Shown here piece by piece: positions 18,145 through 18,298 of a stretch of 47,941 nucleotides of DNA. The notes under the pieces are model-generated. The model made no database searches, was not told where the DNA came from, and saw nothing but the letters and a program-made list of their open reading frames with translations. A program made the position numbers and the translations under genes. Source of the DNA: a virus (Duplodnaviria > Heunggongvirae > Uroviricota > Caudoviricetes); IMG/VR virus record IMGVR_UViG_2606217105_000017; one strand, 5' to 3'. How positions within the stretch are numbered: position 1 is the first letter of the stretch; every line of letters begins with the position of its first letter.

Positions 18145-18220
18145 GCCGACTTAGCTCAGTAGGTAGAGCAACTTACTTGTAATCAGTAGGTCACCAGTTC
18201 GATTCCGGTAGTCGGCACCA
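18145..18220 (+). tRNA. tRNA-Thr (anticodon UGU), 76 nt with CCA
   Basis: Hand-folded cloverleaf: acceptor GCCGACT/AGTCGGC, T-loop TTCGATT, anticodon loop cTTGTaa; one mismatch in anticodon stem; resembles enterobacterial thrU. Confidence 0.8.
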
Positions 18221-18223
18221 TAT

Positions 18224-18298
18224 GCGGGTATCGTATAATGGCTATTACCTCAGCCTTCCAAGCTGATGATGCGGGTTCAATTCCCGCTACCCGCTCCA
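18224..18298 (+). tRNA. tRNA-Gly (anticodon UCC), 75 nt with CCA
   Basis: Acceptor GCGGGTA/TACCCGC, anticodon stem TCAGC/GCTGA, loop cTTCCaa, T-arm GCGGG-TTCAATT-CCCGC; resembles glyT. Confidence 0.8.

What the first reader, a model, noticed from the sequence alone, without database searches (positions are those of the whole stretch)
18145..18298. Two prophage tRNA genes (Thr-UGU, Gly-UCC) resembling host thrU and glyT, in the Q-downstream cargo position
Both fold into canonical cloverleaves with encoded CCA and are separated by only 3 nt. They resemble the thrU and glyT members of the host tufB-operon tRNA cluster but carry substitutions (one anticodon-stem mismatch in the Thr gene). Their position downstream of the tR'-like terminator would make expression Q-dependent, as for tRNAs in Stx-type phages.
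Basis: partly seen in the sequence, partly recalled or inferred. Interest (0 to 1): 0.45.

Follow-up and report, generated by a model that had tools for sequence, protein, structure and literature searches.

The report
Prophage threonine and glycine tRNA cassette
Two real tRNA genes, near-copies of the host's thrU and glyT, sit just after the late-gene switch of a Rac-like E. coli prophage; they belong to a common, already annotated cassette, and the one unusual detail is a recent point mutation in the threonine tRNA at the site where the P2 Old nuclease cuts.

Summary
tRNA-Thr(UGU) lies at 18145-18220 and tRNA-Gly(UCC) at 18224-18298, separated by 3 nt, both with encoded CCA (Rfam 64.4 and 65.5 bits; gathering score 29).

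Thr differs from K-12 thrU by one base, G30U, which gives a U30·C40 mismatch. Gly differs from glyT by a compensatory C6U/G67A pair and one T-loop purine change.

The pair lies between a Q-like antiterminator with its PR'/tR'-like signals and the holin genes of a Rac-like prophage at ttcA.

This is a widespread cassette. About 1,150 extra copies occur in 5,426 complete E. coli genomes, and at least 120 IMG/VR contigs carry it. It is also found in Stx and LT-II phages, always in the Q-to-holin slot, and it is already annotated.

ACA and GGA codons are 2.3-2.5 times enriched in the prophage genes.

G30U is a private, recent SNP (3 of 5,426 genomes; sister prophages carry G30). It falls in the CNG motif cut by P2 Old, and Thr(UGU) and Gly(UCC) head the list of five tRNAs reported depleted by Old. 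Whether G30U is adaptive or damaging is not resolved. Overall: ordinary, with one testable twist.

The parts
17248..17790 (+). Q-like late antiterminator gene (180 aa)
   Evidence: Pfam DUF1133 (E 4e-107), plus Phage_antitermQ at 26.2 bits against a cut-off of 26. PHROG 753 'anti-termination protein Q-like', E 5e-79.
17787..17815 (+). PR'-like late promoter: -35 TTGATT (17787-17792), 17-nt spacer, extended -10 TGcTTCAAT (17807-17815). It is followed by a conserved initial transcribed region containing a -10-like TATGCT (17821-17826).
   Evidence: The block is conserved across 24 unique sequences even where the upstream coding sequence differs. Its role as a promoter is inferred from the sequence, not shown.
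17876..17897 (+). tR'-like intrinsic terminator (CCCGC-TTAAT-GCGGG followed by T7)
   Evidence: Terminator scan. A hairpin plus T-run is conserved at this position in related loci.
18052..18079 (+). Conserved sigma-70-type promoter directly upstream of the tRNAs (TTGAAA-16-TATTAT)
   Evidence: Promoter scan, 10 of 12 matches. In 39 unique diverged upstream regions the -35 TTG is 97-100% conserved and the -10 T,A..,A,T 100%, against 59% for the spacer. Activity was not tested.
18087..18137 (+). Structured 5' leader: outer helix GGTTCT (18087-18092) with GGAACC (18132-18137), and an inner helix 18095-18099 with 18125-18129
   Evidence: Single-sequence fold. RNAalifold on 25 diverged sequences gives 10 pairs, 3 of them with compensatory changes.
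18145..18220 (+). tRNA-Thr(UGU), identical to thrU except for G30U at 18174
   Evidence: ARAGORN; Rfam 64.4 bits; alignment with K-12 thrU.
18221..18223 (+). 3-nt spacer TAT between the two tRNAs
   Evidence: Read from the sequence. The spacer is TAT in 119 of 123 related copies.
18224..18298 (+). tRNA-Gly(UCC), identical to glyT except for C6U/G67A (compensatory) and a T-loop G-to-A change
   Evidence: ARAGORN; Rfam 65.5 bits; alignment with K-12 glyT.
18423..18505 (+). Conserved long RNA hairpin downstream of the tRNAs, function unknown
   Evidence: The region 18299-18700 folds with z = -4.9. RNAalifold on 32 sequences gives 27 pairs, few broken, many G·U pairs and 3 compensatory pairs. Length variation is not in multiples of 3, so it is not coding.
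18662..18738 (+). Two tandem intrinsic terminators that close the tRNA unit before the tciA/tciB and holin genes
   Evidence: Terminator scan: stems at 18662-18683 and 18711-18728, each followed by a T-run.
18871..19925 (+). Downstream context: tciA (TerB-like, frameshifted), tciB (DUF3927) and holin (19533-19925), followed by a second holin and an M15 endolysin
   Evidence: Pfam and PHROG hits. RefSeq annotation of the 98.8% identical prophage in strain 214-4.

Best explanation
These are two functional tRNA genes that form a small transcription unit carried in the 'moron' slot of lambdoid prophages, between the Q/PR'/tR' module and the lysis genes.

The unit consists of a conserved sigma-70 promoter, a structured leader of about 60 nt, tRNA-Thr(UGU), a 3-nt spacer, tRNA-Gly(UCC), a structured 3' region and two terminators.

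The dimeric precursor would be cut by RNase P at each 5' end and trimmed to the encoded CCA. The products would be charged by the host ThrRS and GlyRS, because the identity elements I know of for those enzymes are unchanged.

The effect is to add a second gene copy, or many copies once the prophage replicates and Q-modified polymerase reads through tR', for two isoacceptors that the host encodes once each. These isoacceptors read ACA and GGA/GGG (with possible wobble reading of ACG), codons the prophage uses about twice as often as host genes. The cassette therefore buffers phage translation against shortage of these two tRNAs.

What is shown: gene identity, conservation, position and codon bias. 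What is inferred: promoter activity, processing, charging and the benefit to the phage. The G30U change in this copy is a recent private mutation whose effect is unresolved.
For: The tRNA calls are strong. Selection for tRNA function is visible: across 123 related copies the tRNAs stay at least 96% identical while the flanks fall to 74-85% or to no detectable homology, and the common Gly substitution is a compensatory pair (C6U/G67A, 50 or more copies).

The position recurs. The cassette lies downstream of three unrelated Q families (DUF1133, PF06323, PF03589) and upstream of four holin families. It is present in isolated phages phi467, JLK-2012, vB_EcoS-683R6 and SerU-LTIIb.

The median E. 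coli genome has only one place matching the pair, namely the host tufB operon. PMC12445682 states that thrU is the sole UGU tRNA of MG1655.

Codon use in late genes against 42 K-12 genes: ACA 13.3 against 5.4 per 1000, GGA 14.6 against 6.0, ACG 20.1 against 12.1, GGG 17.7 against 9.2. Fisher p is 1e-9 for ACA and 2e-12 for GGA. These four codons are among the six largest absolute gains of all codons.

A conserved promoter, a covarying leader and downstream terminators support an autonomous unit.
Against: The codon enrichment is a general consequence of the prophage's lower GC3 (0.44-0.53 against 0.57). It is equally present in early genes, and AGA, AGG and AUA are more enriched as ratios, yet this prophage carries no tRNA for them.

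No expression data were available. The promoter is inferred from conservation only.

In this particular copy G30U removes a G:C pair from the anticodon stem. ViennaRNA predicts no stable anticodon hairpin (0 against -2.4 kcal/mol) and an alternative 27-33/41-47 helix, so the Thr gene here may work poorly.
Confidence: 0.6

Rival explanations
1. Counter-defence. The cassette exists to replace tRNAs destroyed by tRNA-cleaving defence nucleases carried by rival mobile elements, mainly P2 Old (the classic P2-lambda interference) and also PARIS AriB and HepS. The G30U allele in this window would be a cleavage-resistant variant, because it changes the C28-U29-G30 cleavage motif to CUU and unpairs C40 at the second cut site.
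For: PMC12445682 reports that P2 Old kills by cutting tRNA-ThrU after C28 and C40 within paired CNG motifs. It also reports that phage Thr(UGU) tRNAs, including that of lambdoid phage 21, rescue cells, and that resistance comes from an altered CNG motif plus a shortened stem.

bioRxiv 10.64898/2026.07.10.737580 reports that Old depletes Thr(UGU), Gly(UCC), fMet, Val(UAC) and Pro(UGG), and that the Thr tRNA of lambdoid phage HK446 restores plating. The cassette therefore holds two of the five listed targets.

glyT also carries C28-A29-G30 / C40-U41-G42 and A37 (read from the sequence). AriB cuts Thr(UGU) between 40 and 41. HepS has Thr(UGU) as a secondary target.

HK446 has unannotated Asn(GUU) and Thr(UGU) genes directly after tR', and JLK-2012 has Asn-Thr-Gly.

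Other family members carry G42C/U43C or G42U/U43C, which remove two stem pairs and change CAG. One locus (L119) also has Gly C28U.
Against: 70 of 123 copies are identical to host thrU and 53 of 123 to glyT. Both papers found that extra E. coli thrU gives no protection.

Single changes to the CNG motif alone did not protect in PMC12445682, and G30U itself was not tested.

G30U is found in only 3 of 5,426 genomes plus this window, and the nearest sister prophages have G30, which fits drift as well as recent selection.

Disruptive changes also occur in the D-stem of other copies, so there is no clear excess in the anticodon stem.

Thr(UGU) and Gly(UCC) are also exactly what codon bias predicts, so the match with Old's targets is confounded.
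Confidence: 0.15
2. Decay. The cassette is (or was) functional in the family, but in this lineage the Thr gene has suffered a damaging mutation in a prophage that is sliding towards being cryptic, so the Thr gene here is a weakened or pseudo-tRNA.
For: G30U costs 9.4 bits against thrU. It abolishes the predicted anticodon-arm hairpin and favours a misfold.

The allele is private and recent. One carrier (B4103-1) has a prophage with most structural genes deleted.

The window's prophage has a frameshifted tciA. It also has a single-base insertion in an A-run in tail-region gene 34801-35419 and another in the annotated 5' end of the cro-like ORF.
Against: The score is still more than double the gathering threshold. 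All other stems, the loops and the synthetase identity positions are intact. Tertiary contacts and modifications, which the energy model ignores, stabilise real tRNAs.

The A-run indels could be assembly errors. The Gly gene is unimpaired.
Confidence: 0.25
3. Decoy or supplement against acceptor-stem-reading toxins. [quoted passage not shown]
For: PMC11559606 reports that FaRel2 selects tRNA-Gly (Gly2/UCC most enriched, 11-12-fold) and tRNA-Thr through G1-C72, C2-G71, G4-C69 and Pu5-Py68. Both window tRNAs keep those pairs (read from the sequence).
Against: FaRel2 comes from a Firmicute and was studied in E. coli only as a surrogate host. No enterobacterial toxSAS with this specificity was found or looked for here. 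The cassette's tRNAs keep all the positive determinants, so they would be modified too.
Confidence: 0.03
4. Not cargo at all: the tRNAs are remnants of an integration site or of a chance capture of host DNA, with no function.
For: Many phages integrate into tRNA genes and carry partial copies of them. The TAT spacer is exactly what a clean deletion of tyrU and its flanks from the host thrU-tyrU-glyT array would leave. That agreement rests on only 3 nt.
Against: Both genes are full length. They lie in the middle of the prophage, about 17 kb from intR and attL at ttcA. The pair is kept intact in very different phages while its flanks diverge, it shows compensatory changes, and it has a conserved promoter.
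Confidence: 0.02

Closest known systems
E. coli thrU (tRNA-Thr4, UGU) and glyT (tRNA-Gly2, UCC) of the thrU-tyrU-glyT-thrT-tufB operon
   Same: The mature sequences are 75/76 and 72/75 identical. They have the same anticodons, the same discriminator bases and the same encoded CCA.
   Different: The flanks share no homology and there is no tyrU or thrT. The two genes are 3 nt apart instead of about 209 nt. The promoter and leader are different: host thrU has a TAGAAT -10 ending about 14 nt upstream of the mature 5' end. The cassette lies inside a prophage.
tRNA genes between Q/PR'/tR' and the toxin or lysis genes of Stx-converting lambdoid phages (ileZ-argN-argO of 933W/Sp5-type phages; from my own knowledge)
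   Same: They occupy the same slot and strand. The Thr-Gly pair is itself found in an Stx phage (phi467, between stxAB and S). In 34 + 14 IMG/VR loci it is fused behind an ileX-like CAU tRNA and an argO-like tRNA.
   Different: The anticodons here are UGU and UCC only. The window's prophage carries no toxin. A conserved dedicated promoter and leader are seen here; whether the Stx-phage tRNAs have one was not examined.
Nuclease-resistant phage tRNA-Thr(UGU) that counters P2 Old: T-even and T5-like phages, lambdoid phages 21 and HK446 (PMC12445682; bioRxiv 10.64898/2026.07.10.737580)
   Same: The anticodon is the same. In HK446 the location is also the same, immediately after tR'. The window allele is altered within the C28-N-G30 motif that Old cuts.
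   Different: Those tRNAs are strongly diverged from thrU (12 or more differences; HK446 has U28-C29-G30 at positions 28-30 instead of thrU's C28-U29-G30). The window's gene differs by one base, and most family members by none in the anticodon arm. Resistance of G30U is untested, and wild-type thrU does not protect.
The T4-type tRNA cluster, which includes Gly(UCC) and Thr(UGU)
   Same: It includes both isoacceptors, closely spaced and processed from multimeric precursors (the processing is from my own knowledge). The sequences are about 84% identical to the window pair.
   Different: T4 is a virulent phage with eight tRNAs in a different order, and the Gly and Thr genes are not adjacent.

Membership tests
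Bacterial elongator tRNA (Rfam RF00005) | Cloverleaf scoring above the curated covariance-model threshold | tested here: met
   64.4 bits (Thr) and 65.5 bits (Gly) against a gathering score of 29. ARAGORN calls both genes.
Bacterial elongator tRNA (Rfam RF00005) | A 7-nt anticodon loop with U33 and a purine at 37, and a 3' CCA | tested here: met
   The Thr loop is CUUGUAA and the Gly loop is CUUCCAA. Both genes end in CCA.
Bacterial elongator tRNA (Rfam RF00005) | All four stems fully paired | tested here: inconclusive
   Gly is fully paired. Thr has a U30·C40 mismatch that is new in this lineage, and an A52·C62 mismatch that host thrU also has. The anticodon arm alone is predicted to be unstable.
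Bacterial elongator tRNA (Rfam RF00005) | Transcribed, processed and aminoacylated | not testable with these tools
   The synthetase identity positions as I know them are unchanged: for ThrRS G1:C72, C2:G71, G35 and U36; for GlyRS U73, G1:C72, C2:G71, G3:C70, C35 and C36. That is indirect evidence only.
Late-region (Q-to-lysis) tRNA cargo of lambdoid phages | Located between the Q gene with its PR'/tR' signals and the holin, on the late-operon strand | tested here: met
   Q-like gene 17248-17790, terminator 17876-17897 and holin 19533-19925, all on the + strand. The same holds in 123 related loci with three Q families and four holin families.
Late-region (Q-to-lysis) tRNA cargo of lambdoid phages | Carried by phages that form particles | tested here: met
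   The cassette is present in the deposited phages phi467, vB_EcoS-683R6, vB_EcoM-606R7, vB_EcoS-689R5, PhiR47_1 and JLK-2012. Whether the window's own prophage can be induced is not known.
Moron (autonomous promoter-gene-terminator insert in a prophage) | Its own sigma-70 promoter upstream and a factor-independent terminator downstream | tested here: met
   The promoter at 18052-18079 has hexamers conserved far above its spacer. Terminators lie at 18662-18683 and 18711-18728. This is sequence evidence only.
Moron (autonomous promoter-gene-terminator insert in a prophage) | Expressed from the repressed prophage | not testable with these tools
   No transcriptome data were available.
Nuclease-resistant phage tRNA-Thr(UGU) (anti-P2-Old / anti-PARIS) | UGU anticodon able to decode ACA | tested here: met
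Nuclease-resistant phage tRNA-Thr(UGU) (anti-P2-Old / anti-PARIS) | Altered CNG motif at the cleavage sites (28-30 and/or 40-42) | tested here: met
   C28-U29-G30 becomes CUU. The 3' strand C40-A41-G42, and the AriB site U36-A-A-U-C|A41, are unchanged (the motif is defined in PMC12445682 and PMC12409363).
Nuclease-resistant phage tRNA-Thr(UGU) (anti-P2-Old / anti-PARIS) | Shortened anticodon stem acting together with the motif change | tested here: inconclusive
   G30U removes an internal pair (30:40) rather than a terminal one as in tRNA-Thr6 (U43A). The paper did not test this change.
Nuclease-resistant phage tRNA-Thr(UGU) (anti-P2-Old / anti-PARIS) | Resists cleavage and rescues Old or PARIS toxicity | not testable with these tools
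   This needs biochemistry or genetics. At family level, 70 of 123 copies are identical to thrU, and thrU does not protect.

The most novel reading that the evidence does not exclude
The Thr(UGU)-Gly(UCC) cassette of lambdoid prophages is a weapon in the old P2-against-lambda conflict. It holds the two tRNAs listed first among those depleted by the P2 Old nuclease. It is transcribed from its own promoter, so the tRNAs are in place before Old is triggered. Alleles such as this window's G30U (and G42C/U43C, or Gly C28U, elsewhere) would be escape variants caught early in their spread. A single base change at the cleavage motif would then turn a host-identical, cleavable tRNA into a resistant one.
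Probability: 0.12. Interest if true: 0.6.

Novelty: already known. Interest (0 to 1): 0.28.

Why it matters
As it stands, this is a routine annotation. It does show that a large share of E. coli genomes carry a second, prophage-borne copy of two otherwise single-copy tRNA genes, which matters for codon-usage and tRNA-pool models.

It would matter more if the G30U allele resists P2 Old or PARIS. That would give a natural one-step example of a temperate phage converting a captured host tRNA into a counter-defence. It would also tie a very common prophage cassette to the recently solved mechanism of P2-lambda interference.

The conserved promoter, leader and 3' hairpin are unexplained RNA features of a very common element, and they are easy to test.

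Tried and rejected
1. Looked for homology between the cassette flanks and the host tufB operon. None was found beyond the mature tRNAs. The only hint is that the TAT spacer equals the bases a clean tyrU deletion would leave, and 3 nt is too few to conclude anything.

2. Rfam at relaxed E-value over 17700-19000. Only sub-threshold hits were returned (miRNA models on the long hairpin, and isrK, sroD and Leu_leader on the PR' transcript), so no known family matches.

3. Tested whether ORF 18345-18623 (92 aa) is a gene. It has no Pfam or PHROG hit, and related loci differ by indels that are not multiples of 3. Rejected as coding.

4. Tried to recover the phage-21-type Thr (C28U/G42A) from IMG/VR with a degenerate pattern. 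There were 0 hits. Phage 21 was not among the 60 top-ranked of 788 matching records listed for the phage collection.

5. Looked for a tRNA nuclease encoded by the prophage itself, which would make the tRNAs self-immunity genes. PADLOC found only a cll plus beta/PD-Lambda-2_C-like pair and a ParB/MTase-like protein, and nothing known to cut tRNA.

6. Asked whether anticodon-stem changes are over-represented among the 123 copies. There are too few events, and D-stem disruptions are about as frequent, so no claim is made.

7. Literature searches for ileZ/argN/argO and for Thr/Gly prophage tRNAs found nothing usable in the held library. The supplement of PMC12445682 and the Sargen & Helaine 2024 paper were not held.

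8. I could not test whether the G30U carriers also hold a P2 old gene, because the genome search cannot be restricted to named records.

Full report
**1. What is there**

ARAGORN reports only two tRNA genes in the window: tRNA-Thr(UGU) at 18145-18220 and tRNA-Gly(UCC) at 18224-18298, both on the + strand. The Rfam tRNA model scores them 64.4 and 65.5 bits against a gathering score of 29, with E about 1e-11 for the whole window. Both carry an encoded CCA and they are separated by TAT.

**2. Relation to the host genes**

Compared with the K-12 thrU-tyrU-glyT-thrT-tufB region, the Thr gene differs from thrU at one base, G30U (window 18174). This turns the G30:C40 pair of the anticodon stem into U·C. 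The Gly gene differs from glyT at three bases: C6U with G67A, which keeps the 6:67 pair, and a G-to-A change in the T-loop.

Similarity stops exactly at the mature ends, so the flanks are unrelated to the tufB operon. K-12 thrU scores 73.8 bits and glyT 64.9. G30U therefore costs about 9 bits, and the Gly allele costs nothing.

**3. Genomic setting**

The window is a Rac-like prophage inserted next to ttcA. It runs from intR/xisR/ralR/recET through to the tail fibres, and its best match is strain 214-4 at 98.8% over 25 kb.

- The gene ending at 17790 is a DUF1133 protein that also reaches the Pfam cut-off for Phage_antitermQ. It matches the PHROG 'anti-termination protein Q-like' family at E 5e-79.
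- Overlapping its stop codon is a conserved extended -10 promoter (TTGATT, 17 nt, TGcTTCAAT). A conserved initial transcribed block follows, ending at an intrinsic terminator at 17876-17897. This is the usual PR'/short-RNA/tR' layout of lambdoid late control. Its activity is inferred, not shown.
- Downstream of the tRNAs come two terminators (18662-18683 and 18711-18728), a frameshifted tciA, tciB, two holins and an M15 endolysin.

The 'Q-downstream cargo position' is therefore correct.

**4. How common it is**

- The 154-nt pair occurs in 6,575 places in 5,421 of 5,426 complete E. coli genomes. The median is one place per genome, the host operon, which leaves roughly 1,150 extra contiguous prophage copies. 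RefSeq already annotates them as tRNA-Thr and tRNA-Gly.
- Among GTDB species representatives the cassette is confined to Escherichia, Shigella, Citrobacter and Enterobacter, apart from one 423-bp contig filed under Corallococcus.
- It is present in deposited phages: phi467 (an Stx phage, between stxAB and S), JLK-2012 (Q, Asn, Thr, Gly, tciA, tciB), vB_EcoS-683R6 (same Q type as here) and SerU-LTIIb.
- In 123 copies the upstream neighbour is one of three unrelated Q families, or a methylase or ORF6N gene next to Q. The downstream neighbour is one of four holin families.
- The pair stands alone in 53 loci. In 48 loci it is preceded by an ileX-like CAU tRNA and an argO-like tRNA.

**5. Evidence that the genes are kept as tRNAs**

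The flanks of these copies are 74-85% identical to the window, or unalignable. The tRNAs themselves stay at least 96% identical. Of 123 copies, 70 Thr copies equal thrU and 53 Gly copies equal glyT. The commonest Gly variant is the compensatory C6U/G67A pair.

**6. Expression**

Between tR' and the Thr gene lies TTGAAA-16-TATTAT (18052-18079). In 39 unique, otherwise diverged upstream sequences the -35 TTG is 97-100% conserved and the T, A, A and T of the -10 are 100% conserved. The spacer averages 59% and the following bases 31-69%. That is the footprint of a working sigma-70 promoter.

A leader of about 60 nt follows. Its closing helix (GGTTCY with RGAACC) ends a few bases before the tRNA and shows compensatory changes at 3 of 10 pairs. 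Together with the two downstream terminators this is a self-contained unit of the moron type.

Q-modified polymerase would also read through it. In HK446 a different Asn-Thr pair starts 2 nt after tR' with no room for a promoter. All of this is sequence inference.

**7. Codon test**

I used 31 intact late genes of the window (8,262 codons), 20 early genes (2,845 codons) and 42 K-12 genes (14,748 codons).

| Codon | Late genes, per 1000 | K-12 genes, per 1000 |
|---|---|---|
| ACA | 13.3 | 5.4 |
| GGA | 14.6 | 6.0 |
| ACG | 20.1 | 12.1 |
| GGG | 17.7 | 9.2 |

As a share of its amino acid, ACA is 0.23 in late genes against 0.10 in the host sample, and GGA is 0.20 against 0.08. Fisher p is 1e-9 for ACA and 2e-12 for GGA. 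These four codons are among the six largest absolute gains of all codons.

Two caveats apply. Early genes show the same bias. AGG, AGA and AUA are more enriched as ratios, so the bias reflects lower GC3 in general.

**8. The G30U mismatch**

It is not a family trait. Only three of 5,426 genomes (B4103-1, E275a and MB06101) have a pair identical to the window's. The six next-closest genomes differ from the window's pair by one base. Strain 214-4, the one of these examined, and the IMG/VR relative L122 have the same Gly allele but G30. The change is therefore a recent SNP.

Energetically it is not neutral. The isolated anticodon arm goes from -2.4 to 0 kcal/mol, and the predicted minimum-energy structure uses an alternative 27-33/41-47 helix made possible by U30-A44. 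The model ignores tertiary contacts and modifications.

**9. Why that position is interesting**

- PMC12445682 shows that the P2 Old nuclease, the agent of P2-lambda interference, kills by cutting tRNA-ThrU after C28 and C40 within paired CNG motifs. It also shows that phage Thr(UGU) tRNAs, including lambdoid phage 21's, rescue cells. Resistance needs a changed motif together with a shorter stem, and extra host thrU does not help.
- A 2026 preprint (10.64898/2026.07.10.737580) lists the tRNAs depleted by Old as Thr(UGU), Gly(UCC), fMet, Val(UAC) and Pro(UGG). It shows rescue by the Thr tRNA of HK446.
- PARIS AriB cuts Thr(UGU) between positions 40 and 41. HepS also touches Thr(UGU).
- glyT carries C28-A29-G30 / C40-U41-G42 and A37 (read).

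The cassette thus contains the first two tRNAs on Old's list. G30U changes CUG to CUU and unpairs C40. A few other copies carry G42C/U43C or G42U/U43C, and one locus also has Gly C28U.

Against an anti-nuclease purpose:

- Most copies are wild type and should be cleaved.
- Single-factor changes did not protect in the published tests.
- G30U is rare.
- The choice of Thr(UGU) and Gly(UCC) is equally what codon bias predicts.

I rate this reading at about 0.12-0.15. A damaging drift mutation is somewhat more likely, at about 0.25. The two can be separated by a simple cleavage and charging experiment.

**10. Verdict**

These are genuine tRNA genes and an ordinary member of a very common, already annotated lambdoid cassette.

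The most likely function is to add supply of two single-copy minor isoacceptors for phage translation (confidence about 0.6). The promoter, leader, 3' hairpin and G30U allele are the only parts that go beyond routine annotation.

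Noticed in passing
window 18423-18505 (+): A long RNA hairpin of about 83 nt lies about 125 nt after tRNA-Gly. It is conserved in 32 diverged sequences: 27 pairs, many G·U pairs (so it is read on the + strand), 3 compensatory pairs, and lengths that are not multiples of 3. It matches no Rfam family. One locus (L041) has lost the apical part. Its function is unknown.
   Followed up: partly
window 18087-18137 (+): The leader between the putative tRNA promoter and tRNA-Thr folds into a conserved helix (GGTTCY with RGAACC, plus an inner GGRGG/CYYCC helix) with covariation. 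It ends 4-8 nt before the mature 5' end. It may be a processing or stability element.
   Followed up: partly
window 17787-17897 (+): A PR'-like extended -10 promoter is followed by a conserved transcript of about 75 nt ending at tR'. This short RNA would be analogous to lambda 6S RNA or StxS. It is conserved even where the upstream gene differs. Weak sub-threshold Rfam hits (isrK, sroD) fall here.
   Followed up: partly
L073 and L117 (Thr body, anticodon UUU); L002 = SerU-LTIIb 1122-1194 (Thr body, anticodon UCU, annotated tRNA-Arg): Some copies of the thrU-like gene have a changed anticodon (G35U or G35C) with few other changes. These are apparent anticodon shifts inside the cassette. Which amino acid they accept is unknown.
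   Followed up: no
IMG/VR loci such as L012, L018 (34 loci), L010 (14 loci), L008, L103: In the four-tRNA arrays, the second tRNA has an argO-like body and carries the anticodon UCU, UUU (with C33 instead of U33), AAA or UAA in different phages. A Lys(UUU)-type anticodon cannot be explained by rare-codon supply, and tRNA-Lys(UUU) is the main PARIS/PrrC target.
   Followed up: no
L119 (IMG/VR): One cassette has changes at the Old cleavage motif in both tRNAs: Thr G42C/U43C and Gly C28U.
   Followed up: no
L139 = phage HK446 NC_019714, 35097-35252: [quoted passage not shown] They are not annotated in the RefSeq record. Its Thr gene is unrelated in sequence to the window's.
   Followed up: partly
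window 13455-15090: An overlapping, oppositely oriented (tail-to-tail) gene pair lies in the nin region: an 'sce7726'/cll-like protein (190 aa, + strand) and a Beta_protein (365 aa, - strand). They hit PADLOC models cll and PD-Lambda-2_C/beta, so this may be a prophage-borne defence module.
   Followed up: partly
window 40963-42123 (+): A 386-aa protein with a type I restriction HSDR_N nuclease-like N-terminal domain is inserted in the tail/baseplate module. It has no PADLOC hit.
   Followed up: partly
window 1557-1735, 7275-7326 (-), 15478-15649: Rfam finds RalA (the antitoxin RNA of RalR), DicF and sok next to hokD. Three known small RNAs are therefore present in this one prophage.
   Followed up: no
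window 8463 and 35205; 18871-19297: Compared with strain 214-4, there are single-base insertions in A-runs in the annotated start of the cro-like ORF and in tail-region gene 34801-35419. tciA is frameshifted in both genomes. These are either early decay of the prophage or homopolymer assembly errors.
   Followed up: partly
window 18218-18228 against K-12 L004 562-778: The junction CCA-TAT-GCGGG is exactly what remains if bases 566-771 of the K-12 locus (tyrU and its spacers) are deleted from thrU-tyrU-glyT. This is a hint of origin by capture and deletion, but it rests on only 3 nt.
   Followed up: partly
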